Numbered from the stretch's first letter, positions 3,371 through 60,000 are shown. The stretch is 64,000 nt of DNA from Candidatus Moraniibacteriota bacterium (GCA_002747515.1 PDPP01000018.1:21751-85750); one strand, 5' to 3'. Program-made: numbers and translations. The notes: generated by a model from the letters alone, not told the origin.

Positions 3371-3694
3371 TTACTTAAATTCTGATACTCTATAATGTCC
3401 ATTATTCAACTTTTTTTTCTTTCTGTCCATAATTTTTTGATATTTTTGCCAAAATGCTGTATCTACTTCATCTACAGAAACACCCATACTAATAAAATTT
3501 CCCAGAACCAAATTTAAAAGATCAATATTTTCTTCGATAATATTTTTACGATCTTTTCCTTTTGTAATTGCCTGTGATAATTCACCCAACTCTTCAATCA
3601 TCAAATTTAACCGAAACATCATATCTTCATTATTTGTGCCTTTCATCTGATTTTTATTATGAAATTCTTGAATTGCCTGATAATATTTTTCCAT
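3371..3694 (-). CDS. MazG-like nucleotide pyrophosphohydrolase (small all-alpha NTP-PPase)
   Basis: 107 aa with the EELGEL motif typical of MazG/dimeric NTP pyrophosphatases. Confidence 0.55.
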   Translation of the reverse strand: MEKYYQAIQEFHNKNQMKGTNNEDMMFRLNLMIEELGELSQAITKGKDRKNIIEENIDLLNLVLGNFISMGVSVDEVDTAFWQKYQKIMDRKKKKLNNGHYRVSEFK

Positions 3695-3702
3695 AAAAAA
3701 AG

Positions 3703-4146
3703 TTATAATTTTATAAAATTCCCTGCACGATAAAAGTCCACTGGACCTTGTGTCGTTTGTGTAATTTTCTCTGGCAATGCATTAATTGGAAACCATTCAA
3801 CAGCATCACATTTATCCGGCTCCATATTTTTGATATAACCACCGACAATTTTTGCAATCACATTAAATGCCACCCAGTGCTGTCCCTCCTCCTCTAAAAT
3901 ATGATCAACATGTGGTAAATATCCGATAATTTCAATATCAATATTTAATTCTTCTTTTATTTCTCGCACAGTAGCATCTATAATTTTTTCACCATATTCA
4001 ACTGTACCTCCAGGCTTTGACCAATAACCAACTTCATTACGAGCTTTTCCTGATCGTCGTGTTAATAAAACTTCATTTTTTTCATTTACAATCAAAGCAC
4101 CACATCCTACACCAATATAATCTTTTCCTACTTGTTTGACACTCAT
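3703..4146 (-). CDS. NUDIX hydrolase
   Basis: Nudix box GGTVEYGEKIIDATVREIKEELNI (GX5EX7REUXEEXGU). Confidence 0.8.
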   Translation of the reverse strand: MSVKQVGKDYIGVGCGALIVNEKNEVLLTRRSGKARNEVGYWSKPGGTVEYGEKIIDATVREIKEELNIDIEIIGYLPHVDHILEEEGQHWVAFNVIAKIVGGYIKNMEPDKCDAVEWFPINALPEKITQTTQGPVDFYRAGNFIKL

Positions 4147-4152
4147 ATTATT

Positions 4153-5457
4153 TTATTCTTTAACAAGTTCTATATCAGCTCCAATACTTCTGAGTCTATT
4201 TTCTAAATTTTCATATCCACGATTAATTGAATATACATCACGCAAAATTGATTCACCTTTTGCACCAAGCATACCCACAAGCATAATTGCTGCTGGCCTA
4301 AGTGCTGGCGGTGATGTAAGATCAGCGTTTTTTAACTGTGATGGACCTGTTACCTCAATACGATGTGAATCAATCAACGCAACATTTCCACCAAGTCGAT
4401 TTAACTCTGTAAAATACACCGCACGATTTTCAAAAACCCAATCGTGAATTAATGTTGTTCCTTTTGCCATCATAGCAATTGGCACAAAAAATGGTAAATT
4501 ATCCATATTTAATCCTGGAAATGGCAGTGCATGGATTTTATCTTCTAATGCCATAAGTTTTGATGGTATCATTTTGATATCTACTAATCGTGTTTTTTTG
4601 TTTTGTGATTTATATGAACGCAGAATTTCATATTTTTGTCCCATCTTCTCAAGTTTAAGAAGCTCTAATTCCAAAAAATCAATCGGACATCTTTTTATTA
4701 TTAATTCACTTTTTGTTGTAATTGCAAGAGAGACAAAAAACATCGCCTCAATTGGATCTTCGCTAATCGTATGTTCAATATTTTTTTTGAGTTTTTTCTT
4801 TCCATACACTTCTAGTGTTGTTGTACCAATACCTTTAATTTTTACACCAAGACCTTCAAGATAAAAACAAAGATCCTGAACCATATAATTTGCTGTAGCC
4901 ATCTTTATCGTTGTTTTACCAGGAATCTGCGCTGCTGCCATAATTGCTGTTTCTGTAACAGTATCCCCAGACTCATAAAGCACGTTATTTTTTACAGGTT
5001 GTAAATTATCAATCTCAATTTCAAAACCATCTTTTTTTGGTGTAATATCGATCCCATATTTTTCCAATGCAAAAAGATGTGGTTTGATTGTACGCGCACC
5101 CAATTTACACCCACCTGCCTGTGGGATAAAATACTTTTTATGTCTTCCTGCAAGTGCACTAATAAGCATAATTGCACTCCGTGTTTTTTTTGCTGCTTTT
5201 TTATTAATTTTTTCAAGAGTGAATTTCTTTGGTGCAATTAATATCAACGTGTCTTCCTCTCTCGTAATATCCATACCAATACTCTCCAGCACTTCGATCC
5301 ATCGATTTACTTCTTCAATCTGTGGAACATTTTTCACAATAGTTTTTCCTTGATTCATCACAGATGCCGCAAGAACAGCTACTGTTGCATTTTTTGACCC
5401 ATTAACCACAATTGATCCAGTAAGTTTTTTACCACCACGTATCTTAAAATATTCCAT
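4153..5457 (-). CDS. murA: UDP-N-acetylglucosamine 1-carboxyvinyltransferase MurA
   Basis: 434 aa, N-terminal KIRGGKKLTGSIVVNGSKNA typical of MurA/EPSP-synthase fold. Confidence 0.85.
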   Translation of the reverse strand: MEYFKIRGGKKLTGSIVVNGSKNATVAVLAASVMNQGKTIVKNVPQIEEVNRWIEVLESIGMDITREEDTLILIAPKKFTLEKINKKAAKKTRSAIMLISALAGRHKKYFIPQAGGCKLGARTIKPHLFALEKYGIDITPKKDGFEIEIDNLQPVKNNVLYESGDTVTETAIMAAAQIPGKTTIKMATANYMVQDLCFYLEGLGVKIKGIGTTTLEVYGKKKLKKNIEHTISEDPIEAMFFVSLAITTKSELIIKRCPIDFLELELLKLEKMGQKYEILRSYKSQNKKTRLVDIKMIPSKLMALEDKIHALPFPGLNMDNLPFFVPIAMMAKGTTLIHDWVFENRAVYFTELNRLGGNVALIDSHRIEVTGPSQLKNADLTSPPALRPAAIMLVGMLGAKGESILRDVYSINRGYENLENRLRSIGADIELVKE

Positions 5458-11132: not shown

Positions 11133-11936
11133 TCATATTCCAAAAAGTTTTTTTGTATTTTCTGCAGTACTTTCAATTACTTGTTCCACAGCAATTTCTT
11201 TTATTTGTGCAATTTTATCTGCTACAAACCACACATCTCGCGGCTCACACCGATTCTCACGTGGTAAAGGACGTGGTGGTAGGTATGGTGCATCTGTTTC
11301 AATCAACACATCTCCCAAATTAATATTACGTATCAACTTTTCATATGATTCTCCATACGTCACAATTCCATTAAGACCAATTTTATATCCTAATGCTATA
11401 AATTTTTGTGCATTTTTCCAACTTCCAATATAACTATGAATTACACCTTTTTGATTTACAGGAAATTCCGTCAATATTTCTAAAATTTCCGCATATCCAT
11501 CCCAACAATGAATCACAATTGGTTTATCCACTTCATTACACACATGAATAAACTGTTTCAATATTTCCACTTGTTTTGCTTTAATCGCCTCAATATCATC
11601 CTCGTCAGAAAAATGATGATAATCCAAACCCACTTCACCAATTGCTACAACACATTTACTTTTTGCTAGTGTTACATATGTATCATAATCAAATTCTTCT
11701 ACATATTCCTCTTCTTTGGCACAATCTGTCGTTTCAAATAAATGCAGTGGATGTAATCCCACTGTTGCATAAATCATGTCATATTCCTGTGCAAGTGCAA
11801 TTGCCTCCTGTGATGTATGATAATTTGTCCCAATCGTAATAATATGAGACACACCATTTTCTTTTGCACGTTTCACTACATCCTCCCTATCATCATCAAA
11901 TTTTGTATCGTGTATATGTGCATGTGAATCAATCAT
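11133..11936 (-). CDS. tatD: TatD-family metal-dependent deoxyribonuclease/hydrolase
   Basis: N-terminal MIDSHAHI His-His motif and TIM-barrel TatD length (267 aa). Confidence 0.8.
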   Translation of the reverse strand: MIDSHAHIHDTKFDDDREDVVKRAKENGVSHIITIGTNYHTSQEAIALAQEYDMIYATVGLHPLHLFETTDCAKEEEYVEEFDYDTYVTLAKSKCVVAIGEVGLDYHHFSDEDDIEAIKAKQVEILKQFIHVCNEVDKPIVIHCWDGYAEILEILTEFPVNQKGVIHSYIGSWKNAQKFIALGYKIGLNGIVTYGESYEKLIRNINLGDVLIETDAPYLPPRPLPRENRCEPRDVWFVADKIAQIKEIAVEQVIESTAENTKKLFGI

Positions 11937-12075: not shown

Positions 12076-12537
12076 ATGAGAGATGTGCCAAATGTTCTTA
12101 TTAAAGGTTCTGATGATGTTACTGAACAAAAAGAGTTTCGTGAATTTGTCATAAAAAAAGCAAAAACAAATTATGTCGTAGTAATCTGCGACAGTAAAAA
12201 AAAAATTAACTTTACACTCGAAGCAGCTGGCTTTGAAATACAATTTGACGAACTTGGTCGCAGAATAAATACAACATTAAATGAACGCATGATTATACGC
12301 AATATTTTAGAGCATGAAGAAAAAATTCTTCAAGATGCTTTTGTCGGAAAAGGTATTGTTGTAAAAGCGCCCATTCTCTATGCAGGATCAGTTCTATGTC
12401 CCATTGATGGAAATGATTTAGTAAAATCTTATGAAGTAGGATTTGAAGAAGTGTTTGTATTTACCACAAAAGAACAAGCAACACAACAAAGCTACATATT
12501 CAGAAAATACCCAAAAATACAAGTTTTTGGGATTTGA
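12076..12537 (+). CDS. Hypothetical protein (153 aa), no recognisable domain
   Basis: Clean ORF with plausible codon usage, ends at a bidirectional terminator. Confidence 0.5.
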   Translation: MRDVPNVLIKGSDDVTEQKEFREFVIKKAKTNYVVVICDSKKKINFTLEAAGFEIQFDELGRRINTTLNERMIIRNILEHEEKILQDAFVGKGIVVKAPILYAGSVLCPIDGNDLVKSYEVGFEEVFVFTTKEQATQQSYIFRKYPKIQVFGI

Positions 12538-12560
12538 CATAATCATTTTCCATAAAAATA

Positions 12561-12593
12561 AAAAGGGCTAGTAAAAAATTTATCAGCCCTTTT
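12561..12593. terminator. Bidirectional intrinsic terminator (9-bp stem AAAAGGGCT/AGCCCTTTT flanked by A-run and T-run)
   Basis: Perfect inverted repeat with poly-T on both strands, between convergent genes 12076..12537(+) and 12632..13033(-). Confidence 0.6.
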
Positions 12594-12601
12594 ACATTTC
12601 C

Positions 12602-12633
12602 AACACTATCATACTACGTAGTATGATAGTGTT
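12602..12633. repeat. Perfect 32-nt palindrome AACACTATCATACTACGTAGTATGATAGTGTT (copy 1, overlaps stop of yerC-like gene)
   Basis: Exact reverse-complement symmetry. Identical copy at 25790..25821. Variant with same ATACTACGTAGTAT core at 13057..13088. Confidence 0.9.
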
Positions 12634-13033
12634 ACATGTCAAATAGATCTTTTATTGCCTGTAATTGTCCATATCTATCAAAAATATTTCTGTAGTACTT
12701 TTTAGAATATTGTTTATTTTTCTTTTTGGTATTATCTTTAAAATATTTTTTTAAACATGCATCATCATCAAATACACGTCGAGCAACTGCAGAAATTGTC
12801 GTTTCGCTAACATGCAACTTTTGACTAATTTCTCTATAACTTTTTTCTTTTAAAAGCATTTTTGCAATTTGTACACGTCGTGATACCATGAGCAATTCAC
12901 TTGAAGAAAGCAAATCAACTAAAAAGGTTGTGACATCGTCTTTTCTTTTTAAATCAGAAATTGCATCAAAAAATTCTCCTACCATCTGTTTCCGTTCTTT
13001 TTCAGTTAAATCTTTTAATTGTAATCTTGCCAT
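12632..13033 (-). CDS. YerC/YecD-like TrpR-family DNA-binding protein
   Basis: 133 aa. The segment LLSSSELLMVSRRVQIAKMLLKEKSYREISQKLHVSETTISAVARRV matches the Trp-repressor-like helix-turn-helix fold of YerC/YecD proteins. Confidence 0.65.
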   Translation of the reverse strand: MARLQLKDLTEKERKQMVGEFFDAISDLKRKDDVTTFLVDLLSSSELLMVSRRVQIAKMLLKEKSYREISQKLHVSETTISAVARRVFDDDACLKKYFKDNTKKKNKQYSKKYYRNIFDRYGQLQAIKDLFDM

Positions 13034-13056
13034 AATTTTTAAAATATAAAAAAATT

Positions 13057-13088
13057 ATCACTACTATACTACGTAGTATAGTAGTGAT
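13057..13088. promoter_or_regulatory. Perfect 32-nt palindrome ATCACTACTATACTACGTAGTATAGTAGTGAT in the promoter region of the yerC-like gene (candidate operator)
   Basis: Lies 24 nt upstream of start codon at 13033. Shares the 14-nt core ATACTACGTAGTAT with the other two palindromes. Confidence 0.5.
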
Positions 13089-13278
13089 TAAATTTATAAT
13101 CAATAGAAATGTTCTAGTAATTAAAAATAGTTTTTTTGCATTCAAACGTATGAATCAGAAAAATGTCCCTCTTACAATGGTAATAAGCGTATAAAAAAAG
13201 ATACCAATGAATTTATCTATTTTTTATTTCTTTACTTATATTAAAATTAATATACCAAATTATCAAAAAGTAAAAAAT

Positions 13279-14550
13279 TTACAACCGAGCTTTATAATTT
13301 TCTGCCCAATACAGAACTTTTTTTCCATAATCAACGCATACACGACGTCCAATATTTCCACCACAATAATATCGTCGCGCAGCATCAAATTCACCACTCT
13401 TTTTACCTGCACCATCATTTTTTAATTTAATTGCCATCGCCATTACACCATCTGTAAGACTCCATGGATCAGCTGGTGAATGTCCCGTATATTTTTCAAT
13501 CTTTGATTCATATCCAGTCCATGTTGTTGGCATGAACTGCGCAACACCCATTGCACCACCAATTCCATAACTCAACGGACATGACACCTTTTTCTTTTTA
13601 TAATTATAATCAAGATCCTTGCAAATTCGCTTAAAAATCTTTTTATTTGCATCCCCCATCTTACTCTCTTTATATGTGCAACCTCCTGTATAGCGACCTA
13701 AATTGGTTTCCACTACAAGCATACCTAGTATAAAACTTTTTCGTACTCCTGTTTTTTTACTTGCAAATTTTGCTGCATCCACTATATCATCTGTATCAAA
13801 ACTCTCGCCCAACAAAGCAGAAAGCTTTCCCTCTACTGCCGACAATTTTGCATTAAGTTCAGCTACTGACATATCAACTTTGATAATTTCTGTTTGAACA
13901 GCAACTGATTGTGCTAGTAAATCTGATTCTGTTTTTTTATGCTCTGCAAGAAGTTTTTCTTTTTCTTTTTTCAAATTCTCTAACTCTAACTTTTTTTGTT
14001 CCTGCAGTTCCTTTGCATTTAACACTTGATTTACCGTAACTATAATCTGTTTACGTAAATGATCTAAGCTATCCGTTGTATCAAGAAAACGTACAGATCC
14101 CTCATCCTCTAAAACTGAGGAGATTGAGCGATTATTTTGCGCAAAATAAAATTTTCTCATTGCCTCTGAAAGAGATTTTTTATAAAGCAAAGTTTGATCT
14201 TCTAGCGATGAAATCTGTGCATTATGCCTTTCGATGTCCTTTTCTTTTTCTTCGATATCTTTGATTACATCATCAATTGTGCGCTTTGTTGCGCCAAGAT
14301 TCTTTTTTACTACATTTAAATTTCCTTGAAGAGCCGCCTTTTCTTTTTCTTTTTTCTCAATCTTTTTCTCATATTTTTCTTTTTTTTCTTCGTATTTTTC
14401 TTCTTTTTCTTCACATTTCTTTTTTTCTTCTTCGGTCAAATCATCGTTACAATTAGCAAAAGCAAAATTTTGATATACAAAACTCATGCTCACAAATATC
14501 ATTATGAGAAAAGCAGGAAAAATTGCTTGTAAAACTTTTTTCATTTTCAT
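13279..14550 (-). CDS. Secreted lytic transglycosylase-like protein (signal peptide, K/E-rich coiled-coil, C-terminal SLT/lysozyme-like domain)
   Basis: C-terminal GVAQFMPTTW motif characteristic of the SLT domain. Start set at MKMKKVLQAIFPAFLIM (signal peptide), not the longer ORF start at 14625. Confidence 0.6.
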   Translation of the reverse strand: MKMKKVLQAIFPAFLIMIFVSMSFVYQNFAFANCNDDLTEEEKKKCEEKEEKYEEKKEKYEKKIEKKEKEKAALQGNLNVVKKNLGATKRTIDDVIKDIEEKEKDIERHNAQISSLEDQTLLYKKSLSEAMRKFYFAQNNRSISSVLEDEGSVRFLDTTDSLDHLRKQIIVTVNQVLNAKELQEQKKLELENLKKEKEKLLAEHKKTESDLLAQSVAVQTEIIKVDMSVAELNAKLSAVEGKLSALLGESFDTDDIVDAAKFASKKTGVRKSFILGMLVVETNLGRYTGGCTYKESKMGDANKKIFKRICKDLDYNYKKKKVSCPLSYGIGGAMGVAQFMPTTWTGYESKIEKYTGHSPADPWSLTDGVMAMAIKLKNDGAGKKSGEFDAARRYYCGGNIGRRVCVDYGKKVLYWAENYKARL

Positions 14551-24813: not shown

Positions 24814-25554
24814 TTATTGTCCTCGATAATATTTATTGACAAACCGTTTAAAGATTTTTTGAGGTATTATAATATTTTCCTGTTCAGCATCTTTAATTAA
24901 TTTCCCTGCATCTTCTGGCGGAAAATATCCTGCGTGTTTATACACATTAATTCGATTGATAATTTCTTCTGTATCCATCTCTGGATGAAACTGCGTTGCA
25001 TAAATATTATTTTTCACACGATACATTTGTACAGGACATGTATCTGAACTTGCAAGAAGAATTGCATCTTTTGGCACACTCTGACATGCTTCCTTGTGCC
25101 CAACAAATGCACGAAATTCTGTTGGTAACCCTTTTAGCAATTCATCTTTCATTCCCACTTTATTAACCTTAATTGTCACAGCGGTCACATCCTCACTATA
25201 TTTTTCTTTTGACACACATGCACCACGATGTTTTGAAAGAATACCAAAACCATAACATGCACCAAAATAAGGAACATCATTTTCTACCACTTCATCAAGA
25301 ATACGAAACAAATCAGATTCAAACTTTTTTTGAATATCGCTTTTTTTCTCTTCATCATCTGACACATTACTTGGCCCTCCTCCTACGACAACAGCCGCAT
25401 AATCTGTTGCATGTACATCAACTGGAATACCATTCTCTTCCATGCGAATACGATGTATATTATTTTTATTTAACTCCCCCCACTTAAGAAAAGCGGAAAA
25501 TTCTGTCTCTGCAATCTCATCTGGTCGTAATTGCAAAATTACTATTTTTTTCAT
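24814..25554 (-). CDS. Class I glutamine amidotransferase-like protein (GuaA-N-like, stand-alone)
   Basis: Nucleophile elbow GACYGFG plus His/Glu (FHPE) triad residues. Confidence 0.7.
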   Translation of the reverse strand: MKKIVILQLRPDEIAETEFSAFLKWGELNKNNIHRIRMEENGIPVDVHATDYAAVVVGGGPSNVSDDEEKKSDIQKKFESDLFRILDEVVENDVPYFGACYGFGILSKHRGACVSKEKYSEDVTAVTIKVNKVGMKDELLKGLPTEFRAFVGHKEACQSVPKDAILLASSDTCPVQMYRVKNNIYATQFHPEMDTEEIINRINVYKHAGYFPPEDAGKLIKDAEQENIIIPQKIFKRFVNKYYRGQ

Positions 25555-25789
25555 AAAAACAAATCTAATAAATAAACAAATTTATCATAACATAATTTCA
25601 TTGACATGCGAGTATTTTATTGATATCATTACTCGCTCTTTTATTTAAAAAGAGGATAATTCACATTCTTTCAGAAAACTTAAATATAAAGAACAATTCT
25701 AAATATCATTCTCTTTCATATCAAATGTAATATAAAATACTCTTTATAATGTTTTCTTTTCACTATTATTTTATATACATTTAAAAAAT

Positions 25790-25821
25790 AACACTATCAT
25801 ACTACGTAGTATGATAGTGTT
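25790..25821. repeat. Perfect 32-nt palindrome AACACTATCATACTACGTAGTATGATAGTGTT (copy 2, identical to 12602..12633)
   Basis: Exact identity to copy 1. Located 45 nt after the stop of the HAD gene and about 240 nt upstream of the GATase gene start. Confidence 0.9.
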
Positions 25822-25865
25822 TATTGATAATAATCGGAAAAGTTTTTATTTGATAATATTTTTTA

Positions 25866-26519
25866 TTATTTTTTTTCTATTTTTTCAATGAGAGTTTGAT
25901 TAATTTGTGAAAATTTATCAACAATAACATCTGCATTATAAAGATCTTTCTTGCTATGTGTTGTCGTAATAGCGATACAATAACATCCTGCATCTTTTGC
26001 GGATTGCACACCACTTGCTGAATCTTCTATTGCAACACAATTTTCTGGATTTATACCCAATATTTGTGCCGTCTTCAAATATGGCTCTGGATTAGGTTTG
26101 CCATTTTTGACATCATCTGCAGAAATTGTTGTTGCAAAATTATTAATAATTCCTAATTCTTTTGTAATTAAATCAATTTCAGAACGAGAAGAGCTAGATG
26201 TAAGTGCAATAGTATATATTTTTGCTAAATCTTTAATAAGTTCAATAACACCATCATATGATTTTTTATTTTCTGGAAAAAGCTCTAAATACATTTGTGA
26301 TTTTTCTTTCAATAATTCATCAATGTTTAAATCAATATTAAAAAATGTTGATATATCTTCATATCCTTTACGATCCGTTTTTCCTGCACAACATGATAAA
26401 TAATCATTATGTGATACATTAATTCCGTATTTTTTTACTGTTTTTTGAAATGCTTTTTCATGAATATGTTCATCATCAATAATAACGCCATTCATATCAA
26501 ATAAAACTGCTTTTATCAT
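25866..26519 (-). CDS. HAD-superfamily hydrolase, subfamily IA (beta-phosphoglucomutase-like)
   Basis: Motif I LFDMNGVIID, motif II/III and IV (EDSASGVQSAKDAG). 4-nt overlap with metG. Confidence 0.75.
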   Translation of the reverse strand: MIKAVLFDMNGVIIDDEHIHEKAFQKTVKKYGINVSHNDYLSCCAGKTDRKGYEDISTFFNIDLNIDELLKEKSQMYLELFPENKKSYDGVIELIKDLAKIYTIALTSSSSRSEIDLITKELGIINNFATTISADDVKNGKPNPEPYLKTAQILGINPENCVAIEDSASGVQSAKDAGCYCIAITTTHSKKDLYNADVIVDKFSQINQTLIEKIEKK

Positions 26520-50585: not shown

Positions 50586-50645
50586 GAAAAAACGGGTGAA
50601 AAGATATCGTGCATGCCAAAAAGCACCACTTCTTTTCACCCGTAT
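50586..50645 (-). terminator. Intrinsic terminator, copy 1 of a tandem about 60-nt hairpin element (12-bp stem ACGGGTGAAAAG/CTTTTCACCCGT, T-run on minus strand)
   Basis: On the minus strand the stem is followed by CACCCGTTTTTTCTTTTTTTT. Nested inner hairpin in loop. Confidence 0.55.
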
Positions 50646-50685
50646 TTAACTCAAAAGAACTAAGATAACGTAATTAATAAACTAA

Positions 50686-50743
50686 AGAAAAACGGGTGAA
50701 AAGAATCGCACGCCAAAAAAGACTTGCTTCTTTTCACCCGTAT
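50686..50743 (-). terminator. Intrinsic terminator, copy 2 of the tandem hairpin element (same 12-bp stem, different loop)
   Basis: Same stem arms as copy 1, followed by T5 on the minus strand. About 40 nt downstream of gene 50780..51523. Confidence 0.55.
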
Positions 50744-50779
50744 TAACTTTTAGAGAACTTTCTAAATCTTAAAAGAGAC

Positions 50780-52840: not shown

Positions 52841-52990
52841 AATATGTGTGGTTAATCCATCTTCTTGTGTATACACGAGAAAATAGATTAACCACAGAAT
52901 ATAAAAACACAACAAAAACCTTTTTACATAAGCTTTTTGTCGTTTTTTTTGTGATTAGATAAAATTTTATATTAAATAAAGCAGAAATAT

Positions 52991-59064: not shown

Positions 59065-60000
59065 ATGAAAAACGACCTTTACGATCTTTTAATTGATTAT
59101 CTCGAACATCTCGAAGTAGAACTTAATCGAAGTCAAAAAACTATAGAAAATTATGAACATTATCTTTCACGATTTATCGAATTTTGTGATGAAAACTACA
59201 ATTTAACCAATCCAAAAAAAATCACTCTTGATATTGTACGTAAGTACCGTATTCACCTCAATCGCCTTGAAACAAATGAAGGGAGATACTTTAAAGCTTC
59301 TACACAAAACTATCATGTGATTGCTCTAAGAAATTTCCTCAAATATTTGGCAAAACGCGACATCTCCACACTCGCTGCAGAAAAAATCGATGTGGGGAAA
59401 AATCCAGAACGCGAAGTAGACTTTCTCGAACCAGAAGAAATAAATCGACTACTACAATCTGCAAATGGACATGATCTTGGCTCTCTACGTGATCGTGCTC
59501 TCCTTGAACTTCTTTTTTCTGCTGGACTTCGCGTCTCAGAAATTGTTTCAATTAACCGTGAAGATATCAATCTCAAAAGACAAGAATTCAGCGTTCGCGG
59601 AAAAGGCAATAAGATTCGTGTCGTGTTCATCTCAGATACCGCAAAAAAAACTCTACACAATTACCTTAAAAAGAGAATAGACATAGACCCAGCTCTCTTC
59701 ATCCGCGTACGTACTGGCTCACATAAAGAAGCTGACGTAGAAGGATTGCGACTCACAACAAGAAGCGTGCAACGCATTGTAAAAAAATATGCAACAAAAG
59801 CTGGTATTGTTAAAGATGTACATCCACACACACTACGTCATTCATTTGCTACAGATCTTTTACAAAATGGTGCAGATATTCGCTCCGTACAAGCCATGCT
59901 CGGACATGCAAATATCACCACAACACAAATCTACACACACATTACAAATCAAAACTTAAAAGGTATTCACAATAAATTTCATGGAAAAAGAAAAAAATGA
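59065..60000 (+). CDS. xerD: Tyrosine site-specific recombinase XerC/XerD family
   Basis: Catalytic RxxR...HTLRHSFAT...LGHANITTTQIYTH (R-H-R-Y tetrad) and N-terminal SAM-like core-binding domain. Confidence 0.8.
   Translation: MKNDLYDLLIDYLEHLEVELNRSQKTIENYEHYLSRFIEFCDENYNLTNPKKITLDIVRKYRIHLNRLETNEGRYFKASTQNYHVIALRNFLKYLAKRDISTLAAEKIDVGKNPEREVDFLEPEEINRLLQSANGHDLGSLRDRALLELLFSAGLRVSEIVSINREDINLKRQEFSVRGKGNKIRVVFISDTAKKTLHNYLKKRIDIDPALFIRVRTGSHKEADVEGLRLTTRSVQRIVKKYATKAGIVKDVHPHTLRHSFATDLLQNGADIRSVQAMLGHANITTTQIYTHITNQNLKGIHNKFHGKRKK

What the first reader, a model, noticed from the sequence alone, without database searches (positions are those of the whole stretch)
12602..13088. Exact 32-nt perfect palindrome present at two loci 13 kb apart, plus a variant; two of the three bracket a TrpR/YerC-like regulator gene
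AACACTATCATACTACGTAGTATGATAGTGTT occurs identically at 12602..12633 (abutting the stop of the yerC-like gene) and at 25790..25821 (between the HAD hydrolase and class I GATase genes). A second perfect 32-nt palindrome sharing the 14-nt core ATACTACGTAGTAT sits at 13057..13088, 24 nt upstream of the yerC-like start. Perfect 16+16 symmetry and exact identity between distant copies is far beyond chance in AT-rich DNA. One reading is a set of dimeric-repressor operators: autoregulation of the yerC-like gene plus a distal target. The alternative is a conserved palindromic hairpin/REP-like element.
Basis: seen in the sequence. Interest (0 to 1): 0.7.

Follow-up and report, generated by a model that had tools for sequence, protein, structure and literature searches.

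The report
Self-bracketing TrpR-like repressor with palindromic operators
The three long palindromes are most likely the DNA binding sites of the small TrpR/YerC-type regulator encoded between two of them, and the same "gene flanked on both sides by its own palindrome" layout turns out to be conserved across the poorly understood ultrasmall CPR/Patescibacteria bacteria.

Summary
AACACTATCATACTACGTAGTATGATAGTGTT occurs exactly at 12602-12633 and 25790-25821. A second perfect 32-nt palindrome with the same 14-nt core sits at 13057-13088. None is expected by chance. The gene between two of them (12632-13033, minus strand, 133 aa) is a TrpR/YerC-family protein by sequence and predicted fold.

A scan of 185,579 species genomes with the 26-nt core found 34 loci, nearly all labelled CPR/Patescibacteria. 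Wherever a homologue of the regulator was captured, it is bracketed by two copies. Among 71 metagenomic homologue loci, 61 share a near-identical element upstream and downstream of the gene. The sequence of that element differs between lineages.

Sites are few per genome (at most 6 per MAG). As a class they lack U-tracts, and they often lie 0-45 nt upstream of start codons. This supports the operator reading and argues against REP elements or terminators.

Neighbouring genes lean towards nucleotide metabolism and DNA repair.

Three things remain unexplained:
- the reason for the downstream copy;
- the near-perfect dyad symmetry even at non-conserved positions;
- local arrays of the palindrome in some lineages.

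I rate it a new variant of a known kind. No protein-DNA binding has been tested.

The parts
12632..13033 (-). Regulator gene, 133 aa, TrpR/YerC family with a roughly 45-aa C-terminal extension
   Evidence: Pfam PF01371 at 3.7e-16, 59.4 bits against a cut-off of 27. TIGR02531 yecD_yerC at 46.2 bits against 42.2. The closest solved chains are 3FRW, 3G1C and 3KOR. The AF2 model has pLDDT 82.6, and its top 39 Foldseek hits are all TrpR-type structures. An identical protein is annotated in a Candidatus Moraniibacteriota MAG.
13057..13088 (.). Upstream operator: perfect 32-nt palindrome ATCACTACTATACTACGTAGTATAGTAGTGAT, 23 nt before the regulator's ATG
   Evidence: It overlaps the predicted minus-strand promoter TTGATT-17-TATACT at 13103..13075. 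Equivalent upstream copies lie 11-30 nt from the ATG in L001, L003, L006, L010, L025, L030, L035 and L036.
12602..12633 (.). Downstream operator: perfect 32-nt palindrome that overlaps the regulator's stop codon by 2 nt
   Evidence: Equivalent copies lie 0-20 nt after the stop in L001, L003, L006, L025, L030 and L035. The family-wide median is 16 nt after the stop.
25790..25821 (.). Distal operator, identical to the 12602 copy. It lies 44 nt after the HAD gene's stop and 235 nt before the GATase ATG.
24814..25554 (-). Candidate regulated gene: stand-alone glutamine amidotransferase resembling GMP synthase subunit A
   Evidence: Pfam GATase at 5.3e-18. NCBIfam PRK07567 at 299.5 bits against a cut-off of 264. 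Its target status is inferred from position only.
13075..13103 (-). Predicted sigma-70-type promoter of the regulator; its -10 hexamer lies inside the palindrome
   Evidence: This is a consensus match only: 9 of 12 positions, and the number of such matches in the region is no higher than in shuffles.
12565..12595 (.). Conventional bidirectional intrinsic terminator (GGGCT...AGCCC with A/T runs on both sides), between the downstream palindrome and the convergent ORF 12076-12537
   Evidence: Read. It shows that transcription of the regulator is ended by a separate element, not by the palindrome.
11133..11936 (-). tatD-type DNase gene. In relatives it follows the regulator directly, with the downstream palindrome in front of it.
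   Evidence: Pfam TatD_DNase at 8e-70. TatD follows the regulator in L025, L027, L035, L036, L037, L042, L043, L063 and L070.

Best explanation
The three palindromes are the cognate DNA operators of the TrpR/YerC-family protein encoded at 12632-13033.

Site anatomy. Each site is built from four ACTA(C/T)-type pentamers arranged as P1-N3-P2-N2-P3-N3-P4, with P1 and P2 pointing one way and P3 and P4 the other. Repeats on the same strand are 8 bp apart. A site therefore has room for two dimers side by side, in the manner of tandem TrpR binding.

Upstream copy. It covers the predicted promoter of the regulator gene, so the protein would repress its own synthesis.

Distal copy. It marks a second regulated transcription unit, with the GuaA-like amidotransferase as the candidate target.

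Downstream copy. A copy at the stop codon is a conserved feature of the whole subfamily. In most genomes it lies about 40 nt ahead of the next gene on the same strand, which is often tatD in this organism's relatives. There it would be that gene's operator. In this window a convergent ORF and its terminator now separate it from tatD. Here it most likely serves as an auxiliary operator, either for cooperative binding with the upstream site or as a roadblock at the end of the gene.

Regulon. Taken across genomes, it leans towards nucleotide metabolism and DNA repair or processing. The effector is unknown.

Shown:
- the sequences and their conservation;
- the bracketing of the regulator;
- low copy number;
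- absence of U-tracts as a class;
- the protein's family and fold.

Inferred:
- binding of the palindromes by this protein;
- repression;
- stoichiometry;
- the role of the downstream copy;
- the regulon theme.
For: (1) The sites are exact and non-random.

(2) The core ACTANNNTACTACGTAGTANNNTAGT has about one chance match expected in 596 Gb (my estimate). It hits 34 loci, almost all in Patescibacteria classes. Conservation of sequence across such distant lineages points to a sequence-specific reader, not just a hairpin.

(3) Every regulator homologue captured in those loci is flanked by two copies: L001, L003, L006, L010/L027, L025 and L030.

(4) In 80 metagenome loci chosen through the protein, 61 of 71 with both flanks share a 20-mer matching at 17 or more positions upstream and downstream, against 5% of cross-locus controls. 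The element differs between lineages and follows protein clades (Mantel r = 0.18-0.28, p <= 0.001).

(5) L036 carries the window's exact 32-mer upstream of a protein only 44% identical.

(6) Positions fit promoter occlusion. The upstream copies end a median of 39 nt before the ATG. Distal ACTAC-class sites end 0-45 nt before start codons of NUDIX, dprA, pyrF, purM-like, tatD, nadE and rluA-type genes.

(7) Copy number is low: at most 6 per MAG.

(8) U-tracts are not enriched after the hairpins. The T count is 2.4 of 8 against a background of 2.3, and 3.49 against 3.22 of 9 for the direction of incoming transcription versus the other.

(9) The protein is a TrpR-fold HTH. Published relatives TrpR and HisR/YerC bind palindromic operators and autoregulate (PMC9413887).
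Against: - No binding data exist.
- Dyad symmetry is kept even at positions with no sequence preference. Pair 16-31 reads CG 11, GC 11, AU 7, UA 6, and 0 of 500 shuffles reach the observed score. Different self-complementary variants coexist in one genome (window; JALVPE; CAZHQB). A dimeric reader alone does not require this.
- Among about 21 non-regulator intergenic sites, 4 lie between convergent genes, and 3 further sites lie inside ORFs.
- In this window the downstream copy faces a terminator and a convergent gene, so it cannot control a promoter.
- Recognition-helix identity predicts the motif no better than the rest of the protein (partial r = 0.05). Co-variation is therefore shown only at clade level.
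- The distance between the two flanking operators (456-607 bp) shows no helical phasing, so nothing supports a phase-constrained loop.
- The distal site is 235 nt from the GATase start, which is far for simple occlusion.
Confidence: 0.68

Rival explanations
1. The palindromes are a small family of hairpin- or cruciform-forming repeats that spread by copying, in the manner of REPs or miniature transposable elements. The HTH protein they flank would be their partner, as REPs flank RAYT genes. On this view the protein handles, silences or exploits the repeats rather than acting as a metabolite-sensing repressor.
For: - Symmetry is near-perfect, with compensatory changes, and arms extend up to 19 nt beyond the conserved core.
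- Copies 13 kb apart are identical, and the similarity stops exactly at the palindrome ends.
- Some lineages carry local arrays of 3-4 copies on each side of the gene, without ORFs between them.
- Direct repeats of about 45 nt (L041) and 39 nt (L077) flank the whole block, suggesting insertion.
- In-frame copies occur inside argS and uvrA.
- The genes next to the module vary between lineages.
Against: - The flanked protein has no catalytic domain and is purely a TrpR-fold HTH.
- Copy number is low.
- The same 26-nt core is conserved across very distant CPR classes, which is unusual for selfish repeats.
- Synteny (regulator-tatD and other neighbour pairs) is kept among related loci, which argues for vertical inheritance.
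- There are no hits in 2.9 million viral contigs.
- Symmetrisation could arise without selection, through template switching in quasi-palindromes during replication. This is a known mutational mechanism that I cite from my own knowledge.
Confidence: 0.14
2. The palindromes act in RNA. They would be transcription terminators or stabilising hairpins at the 3' ends of the upstream minus-strand genes and in the regulator's untranslated regions.
For: - All three window copies lie downstream of a minus-strand gene.
- Two of them (13088..13057 and 25821..25790) are followed on the minus strand by AATTTTTTTA and ATTTTTTAAA, and the terminator scan calls them.
- As RNA they fold at -18 to -21 kcal/mol, z about -6.
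Against: - As a class the elements have no U-tract.
- The 12602 copy is followed by GGAAATG and then by a separate canonical terminator.
- A terminator hairpin does not need 20 invariant bases conserved across phyla.
- Many copies sit immediately before start codons.
- There is no Rfam match.
Confidence: 0.07
3. The sites are bound by a different protein, such as another transcription factor or a nucleoid or partition protein. Their position around the TrpR-like gene would then only reflect that this gene is one of that protein's targets.
For: - No binding has been tested.
- The recognition helix does not predict the motif better than the rest of the protein.
- Proteins with quite different helices are associated with the same ACTAC motif: SETTISAVAR, GEGTVSSVAR and SFATVAKVSI.
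Against: The only gene family recurrently adjacent to the sites is the regulator itself: one cluster of 7, against pairs at most for all others. The two-sided bracketing follows this gene through changing neighbourhoods and changing motif sequences.
Confidence: 0.06

Closest known systems
E. coli TrpR and its operators (trpEDCBA, aroH, trpR), including tandem binding (PDB 1TRO, 1TRR)
   Same: The fold is the same (Foldseek TM to target about 0.72-0.76). Both have a palindromic operator over the regulator's own promoter. Both have half-site repeats spaced 8 bp apart, allowing more than one dimer per operator. The half-site GNACT with an 8-bp spacer is quoted in PMC9413887. The shared ACT/TACTA core is my own reading.
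   Different: The sites are 26-32 bp with four pentamers, against about 18-20 bp. The consensus differs: TACTACGTAGTA core against GTACTAGTTAACTAGTAC. The protein is 133 aa with a conserved C-terminal tail (LLDxYxQHRxLKxLL) that TrpR lacks. A second operator follows the gene. No trp genes lie next to any site.
HisR (YerC) of Firmicutes, the histidine repressor of the TrpR family (PMC9413887)
   Same: This is the closest sequence family: TIGR02531 is passed and the best PDB relatives are 3FRW and 3G1C. Motifs are lineage-specific palindromes. The gene is autoregulated in about half of genomes.
   Different: The HisR motif is a 20-bp cacTTTAnnnnnnTAAAgtg and lies in front of his and transporter genes. 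HisR proteins are under 100 aa. The paper reports candidate sites upstream of hisR only. The CPR sites lie next to nucleotide and DNA-repair genes, not his genes.
REP sequences flanking RAYT genes
   Same: In both, a single-copy gene for a DNA-binding protein is flanked on both sides by short extragenic palindromes that also occur elsewhere in the genome. The repeat sequence changes with the lineage of the protein.
   Different: RAYTs are HUH/Y1 transposase-family enzymes, and REPs number tens to hundreds. Here the protein is a non-catalytic HTH and there are only a few copies per genome.
Dual-operator repression systems (lac O1/O2, gal OE/OI, lambda OL/OR around cI)
   Same: In both, operators lie on both sides of a transcription unit, which could allow cooperative occupancy. 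In lambda they bracket the repressor gene itself. This comparison is from my own knowledge.
   Different: There is no evidence here for looping. The operator distance shows no helical periodicity, and the oligomeric state is unknown.

Membership tests
TrpR/YerC (HisR) family of repressors (Pfam PF01371; TIGR02531) | Sequence match above the curated thresholds | tested here: met
   PF01371 at 59.4 bits against 27. TIGR02531 at 46.2 bits against 42.2. TIGR01321 (true TrpR) at 36 bits against 67, which is not met.
TrpR/YerC (HisR) family of repressors (Pfam PF01371; TIGR02531) | All-helical TrpR fold with HTH | tested here: met
   The AF2 model has pLDDT 82.6, and above 90 over residues 11-80. 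The top 39 Foldseek PDB hits are exclusively 3FRW, 3G1C, 3KOR and E. coli TrpR.
TrpR/YerC (HisR) family of repressors (Pfam PF01371; TIGR02531) | Palindromic operator in its own promoter region (autoregulation) | tested here: met
   At sequence level only. The palindrome lies 23 nt before the ATG and overlaps the predicted -10. The arrangement is conserved in homologue loci.
HisR (YerC) orthologues specifically | 20-bp motif cacTTTAnnnnnnTAAAgtg upstream of his biosynthesis or transport genes; protein under 100 aa | tested here: not met
   The motif is different and longer. The neighbours are not his genes. The protein is 133 aa with an extra C-terminal segment. The HisR definition is taken from PMC9413887.
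TrpR/YerC (HisR) family of repressors (Pfam PF01371; TIGR02531) | Small-molecule co-repressor controls DNA binding | not testable with these tools
   No ligand can be inferred. The tryptophan and histidine pocket residues were not examined.
REP/RAYT-type extragenic palindromes | Tens to hundreds of copies per genome | tested here: not met
   There are 3 copies in 64 kb and at most 6 per MAG with the core pattern. MAGs are incomplete and the pattern is strict, so this is a lower bound.
REP/RAYT-type extragenic palindromes | The flanked gene encodes an HUH/Y1 transposase-like enzyme | tested here: not met
   The flanked gene is a TrpR-fold HTH. A Y1_Tnp gene lies 511 nt from one site in L034; this is a single case.
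Intrinsic (factor-independent) terminators | Stable hairpin directly followed by a U-tract at a gene's 3' end | tested here: not met
   Met for 2 of the 3 window copies. Not met for the class: the T content after the hairpins equals background.
Looping dual-operator systems | Operator spacing constrained to whole helical turns | tested here: inconclusive
   For 58 distinct loci at a 10.5-bp period, Rayleigh R = 0.10 and p about 0.55. Phasing is expected to be weak at about 500 bp in any case.

The most novel reading that the evidence does not exclude
The unit [palindrome - small TrpR-like gene - palindrome] may be more than an autoregulated repressor. It could be a self-contained, occasionally mobile module found throughout CPR. 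Its hairpin-capable palindromes would be kept perfectly symmetric, multiply locally, and seed new sites even inside genes. The protein would recognise or manage an extruded hairpin or cruciform, or act as a roadblock or insulator at both ends of its own gene. That would be a non-enzymatic counterpart of the REP/RAYT relationship, and a route by which a regulon is wired through copying of its operator.
Probability: 0.15. Interest if true: 0.85.

Novelty: new variant of a known kind. Interest (0 to 1): 0.64.

Why it matters
CPR/Patescibacteria make up a large share of bacterial diversity, have tiny genomes, and I expect them to have few transcription factors. I found no description of this regulator or its motif in the held literature.

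- If the reading is right, it gives a conserved, easily recognisable regulator-operator pair. A regulon could then be read directly from sequence in many uncultured lineages.
- The genes next to the sites are purL/purM, pyrF, thyX, tmk, a guaA-like amidotransferase, NUDIX, HD and CYTH hydrolases, tatD, dprA, dinB, uvrA/uvrC and glycosylases. They point to control of nucleotide supply and DNA maintenance. CPR genomes are generally reported to lack de novo nucleotide synthesis (my own knowledge), which would make this central to their host-dependent lifestyle.
- The two-sided bracketing of a repressor gene by its own long, perfectly symmetric operators is an unusual design whose logic can be tested. 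The candidates are cooperativity, roadblock, insulation and copying.

Tried and rejected
- **Exact-protein look-ups.** These were meant to extend the window's contig. The regulator and one other ORF are not on record, and a third gave only a 4-kb contig. The genome-wide count in this organism could not be made.
- **Word-based homologue search.** It found only the protein itself.
- **First related-locus scan.** A closer 10-sequence alignment worked.
- **Intrinsic terminator reading.** Rejected for the class after counting T residues downstream of the hairpins.
- **Riboswitch or known RNA.** None was found. Rfam reports only a tRNA in the window.
- **Phage origin.** There are no matches in viral contigs.
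- **DNA-loop phasing.** No periodicity was found.
- **Specificity-determining residues.** The Mantel and partial-correlation test did not single out the recognition helix.
- **NrdR box.** I considered this because the outer ACACTAT/ATAGTGT of the window's 32-mer resembles NrdR half-sites (from my own memory). I dropped it because the conserved part is the central TACTACGTAGTA and the outer bases vary between genomes.
- **LexA/SOS box.** I considered this because of the DNA-repair neighbours. A LexA network in Patescibacteria has already been published (Sanchez-Osuna et al. 2017, cited in PMC8565304; the paper itself is not held). The bracketing follows the TrpR-like gene, not lexA.
- **Flanking direct repeats as insertion scars.** Those in L079 are two paralogous NUDIX genes. 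Those in L041 and L077 remain unexplained.

Full report
**1. The observation**

Reading 12400-13300 and 25500-26200 and searching the window confirm the finding. The 32-mer AACACTATCATACTACGTAGTATGATAGTGTT occurs exactly twice, at 12602-12633 and 25790-25821. No other match exists within three mismatches, and none appeared in 100 shuffles. The 14-nt core occurs three times against 0.09 expected.

The third site, ATCACTACTATACTACGTAGTATAGTAGTGAT at 13057-13088, is also a perfect 16+16 palindrome. Its three differences from the other two are mirrored in both arms.

The 12602 copy overlaps the TAA stop of ORF 12632-13033 (minus strand) by 2 nt. The 13057 copy ends 23 nt before that ORF's ATG. The distal copy lies between a HAD hydrolase gene (25866-26519) and a class-I amidotransferase gene (24814-25554), both on the minus strand. 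Looser searches for the core or for one arm gave nothing else convincing in the 64 kb.

**2. The gene in the middle**

The 133-aa product matches Pfam Trp_repressor (59.4 bits, cut-off 27) and NCBIfam yecD_yerC (46.2 bits, cut-off 42.2). It does not reach the cut-off of the true TrpR equivalog. Its nearest solved relatives are the YerC/HisR-type structures 3FRW, 3G1C and 3KOR.

An AlphaFold model built on 30 homologues has pLDDT 82.6. Foldseek matches it only to TrpR-type structures, including the E. coli operator complexes 1TRO and 1TRR.

Residues beyond about 90 are an extension absent from TrpR and HisR. The extension ends in a motif conserved among homologues, LLDxYxQHRxLKxLL. An identical protein is annotated in a Candidatus Moraniibacteriota MAG, so the window comes from a CPR/Patescibacteria bacterium.

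**3. The palindrome elsewhere**

I scanned one genome for each of 185,579 species with ACTANNNTACTACGTAGTANNNTAGT. The pattern has 20 specified bases, so I estimate about one chance match. It gave 34 loci. Nearly all are labelled Patescibacteria: Saccharibacteria, Woese-, Shapiro-, Roizman-, Moran- and Berkelbacteria, and Microgenomates. A few MAGs carry other automatic labels.

The richest MAG has six sites, and most have one to three. Twenty-two of the 35 sites in these loci are perfect palindromes with arms of 13-19 nt.

A profile built from the regulator finds a homologue in six of these loci. After allowing up to three mismatches, each homologue is flanked by two copies. One copy lies 11-30 nt before the start and the other 0-20 nt after the stop. 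In an all-against-all comparison of the genes next to the sites, the regulator is the only family that recurs strongly, with a cluster of 7 against pairs at most for the others.

**4. The protein elsewhere**

Exhaustive HMMER found 914 cluster representatives, many of 130-145 aa with the same C-terminal motif. A metagenome scan seeded with ten of them returned 80 loci.

Only a few carry the ACTAC-type motif. One is L036, whose upstream palindrome is the window's exact 32-mer although the protein is only 44% identical.

The layout, however, is general:
- In 61 of 71 loci with both flanks available, the 110 nt before the start and the 110 nt after the stop share a 20-mer matching at 17 or more positions. 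The cross-locus control gives 5%.
- The shared element is a long palindrome or near-palindrome whose sequence differs from lineage to lineage. Examples are TACAGTAATACAGTATACTGTA, TTTACCATTCAxCCATATATGGTAAA, ACTCCCATA...TATGGGAGT and CAATATACTAGTATATTG.
- All share one plan: pentamers 8 bp apart on one strand, then the same inverted, written P1-N3-P2-N2-P3(-N3-P4).
- Motif types follow protein clades (Mantel r = 0.18-0.28, p <= 0.001). The recognition helix predicts the motif no better than the N-terminal half (partial r = 0.05), so co-variation is shown at clade level only.

**5. Operator or hairpin element?**

Evidence for operators:
- Twenty bases are conserved across very distant classes.
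- The sites are tied to one HTH gene through changing neighbourhoods.
- Copy number is low.
- Positions fit promoters. The upstream copies end a median of 39 nt before the ATG. In the window the predicted -10 lies inside the palindrome. Distal ACTAC-type sites end 0-45 nt before the starts of NUDIX, dprA, pyrF, purM-like, tatD, nadE and rluA-type genes.

Evidence against terminators:
- The T content after the hairpins equals background in the family (2.4 of 8).
- It does not depend on the direction of incoming transcription (3.49 against 3.22 of 9).
- In the window two copies do have T-runs on the minus strand and would fold at about -18 kcal/mol as RNA, so an incidental terminator role here is possible.
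- The 12602 copy is followed by a separate canonical bidirectional terminator at 12565-12595.

Rfam has no match, and viral contigs have none.

**6. What does not fit a plain operator**

(a) Symmetry is kept at positions that carry no sequence preference. In 45 aligned sites, pair 16-31 reads CG 11, GC 11, AU 7, UA 6 and other 6. Pair 10-37 reads CG 25 and UA 13. No shuffle reaches the observed covariation. Different self-complementary variants coexist in one genome. Either pairing of the arms matters (hairpin or cruciform), or quasi-palindromes are perfected by template switching during replication. The second is a known mutational process that I cite from memory.

(b) Four of about 21 non-regulator intergenic sites lie between convergent genes, although my gene calls missed small ORFs such as the one in L011 and L012. 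Three sites lie inside ORFs. In argS (L026) and uvrA (L021) the palindrome is read in the same frame as TTILRS(I/N)VV.

(c) In L041, L055 and L038 the regulator has three or four copies on each side, 70-140 bp apart, with no ORFs between them. In L041 and L077, direct repeats of about 45 nt and 39 nt flank the whole block. In L079 a similar repeat is merely two paralogous NUDIX genes.

**7. The downstream copy**

The next gene downstream is on the same strand in about three quarters of loci. The palindrome then ends roughly 40 nt before that gene, the same distance as the upstream copy from the regulator. In these cases it can simply be the operator of the next gene.

In the window's relatives that gene is tatD: L025, L027, L035, L036, L037, L042, L043, L063 and L070. 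In the window, an unclassified 153-aa ORF on the other strand (12076-12537) and a terminator lie between the palindrome and tatD (11133-11936). The copy here cannot control a promoter, yet it is still perfect and identical to the distal one.

The downstream copy is kept about equally often in loci called convergent (13 of 16) and co-directional (42 of 49). I therefore take it as also serving the regulator itself, through cooperative occupancy with the upstream site or as a roadblock at the gene's end. The distance between the two sites (456-607 bp) shows no helical phasing, so a loop is neither supported nor excluded.

**8. Regulon flavour (inference)**

Genes next to sites or directly downstream of the regulator include:
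- Nucleotide metabolism: a GuaA-like amidotransferase in the window, purL and a purM-like gene, pyrF, thyX (twice), tmk, and nadE with an NAD kinase gene.
- Phosphohydrolases: NUDIX (several), HD and CYTH hydrolases.
- DNA repair and processing: tatD (many), dprA, dinB, uvrC, uvrA, an HhH-GPD glycosylase, a methyladenine glycosylase and a PD-(D/E)XK nuclease.

By my rough count, about half of the distal sites touch such a gene. Glycosyltransferases, tRNA synthetases and unknown proteins also occur, so the theme is suggestive only. A LexA-based SOS network in Patescibacteria has been published separately (reference in PMC8565304).

**9. Comparison with what is known**

The system works like TrpR and HisR. 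It is a small TrpR-fold repressor with a palindromic operator on its own promoter and a handful of further sites (PMC9413887). Half-site repeats 8 bp apart recall tandem TrpR binding (1TRR).

It is a member of the TrpR/YerC family by sequence and fold. It is not a HisR orthologue, because the motif, the targets and the protein length all differ.

New here are:
- the four-pentamer sites of 26-36 bp;
- the near-universal bracketing of the gene;
- the perfect symmetry;
- the C-terminal extension;
- the spread through CPR.

Full-text searches found no description of any of these.

**10. Verdict**

The operator interpretation is supported by comparative evidence, and I put it at 0.68. I rate the finding a new variant of a known kind, with interest 0.64. 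A REP-like, hairpin-centred or partly mobile nature is not excluded (about 0.15) and would be considerably more interesting.

Noticed in passing
L041:2500-3750; L055:1-1000; L038:2700-4180: In some lineages the regulator is flanked by arrays of 3-4 copies of its palindrome on each side, not by one. The copies are 70-140 bp apart, with no ORFs between them. L041 also has a duplicated 258-bp unit.
   Followed up: partly
L041:2480-2530 and 3874-3925; L077:2917-2955 and 4163-4201: Direct repeats flank the whole palindrome-regulator block. One is about 45 nt and duplicates the 3' end of a glycosyltransferase ORF. The other is a perfect 39 nt that abuts the upstream palindrome. They look like insertion or duplication scars.
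   Followed up: partly
L026:793-818 (argS); L021:2803-2828 (uvrA); L023:447-472: Exact copies of the 26-nt core lie inside long ORFs. In argS and uvrA the palindrome is read in the same frame, as TTILRS(I/N)VV. In argS the protein is little or no longer than E. coli ArgRS over this stretch, by my own comparison from memory.
   Followed up: partly
L034:5489-6190: An IS200-like Y1 transposase gene (Pfam Y1_Tnp, the family that includes RAYTs) lies 511 nt from a palindrome in a Berkelbacteria MAG. This is a single case.
   Followed up: no
window 12076-12537 (+) and 12565-12595: A 153-aa ORF without any family match, plus a bidirectional terminator, sits between the regulator and tatD. In relatives the regulator and tatD are adjacent, so this is probably an insertion.
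   Followed up: partly
window 25555-25789: The 235-nt gap between the distal palindrome and the GATase start contains a near-consensus plus-strand promoter-like site (TTGACA-17-TATCAT with TG, 25601-25629). It also contains a hairpin, GCGAGTA...TACTCGC, followed by TCTTTTATTT. There is no Rfam match and no convincing small ORF.
   Followed up: partly
L011:3160-3430; L012:895-1105: A conserved small ORF (MEEKILQK..., with a hydrophobic C-terminal half) lies between the palindrome and the GDPD gene. My gene calling missed it, and it is the gene nearest to that operator.
   Followed up: partly
window 50588-50744: A cluster of inverted repeats is built on AAAACGGGTGAAAAGAA / TTCTTTTCACCCGT, with two copies in each orientation (I5, I18, I22). 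It is unrelated to the ACTAC palindrome.
   Followed up: no
window 52847-52896: This is the longest palindrome in the window: 29-nt arms, 90% complementary, TGTGGTTAATC...GATTAACCACA (I1).
   Followed up: no
window 59065-60000 (+): This ORF is a tyrosine recombinase (Phage_integrase domains, according to the gene table).
   Followed up: no
L079:2303-2725 and 3482-3940: Two paralogous NUDIX genes flank the regulator. The downstream palindrome lies about 20 nt before the second one.
   Followed up: yes
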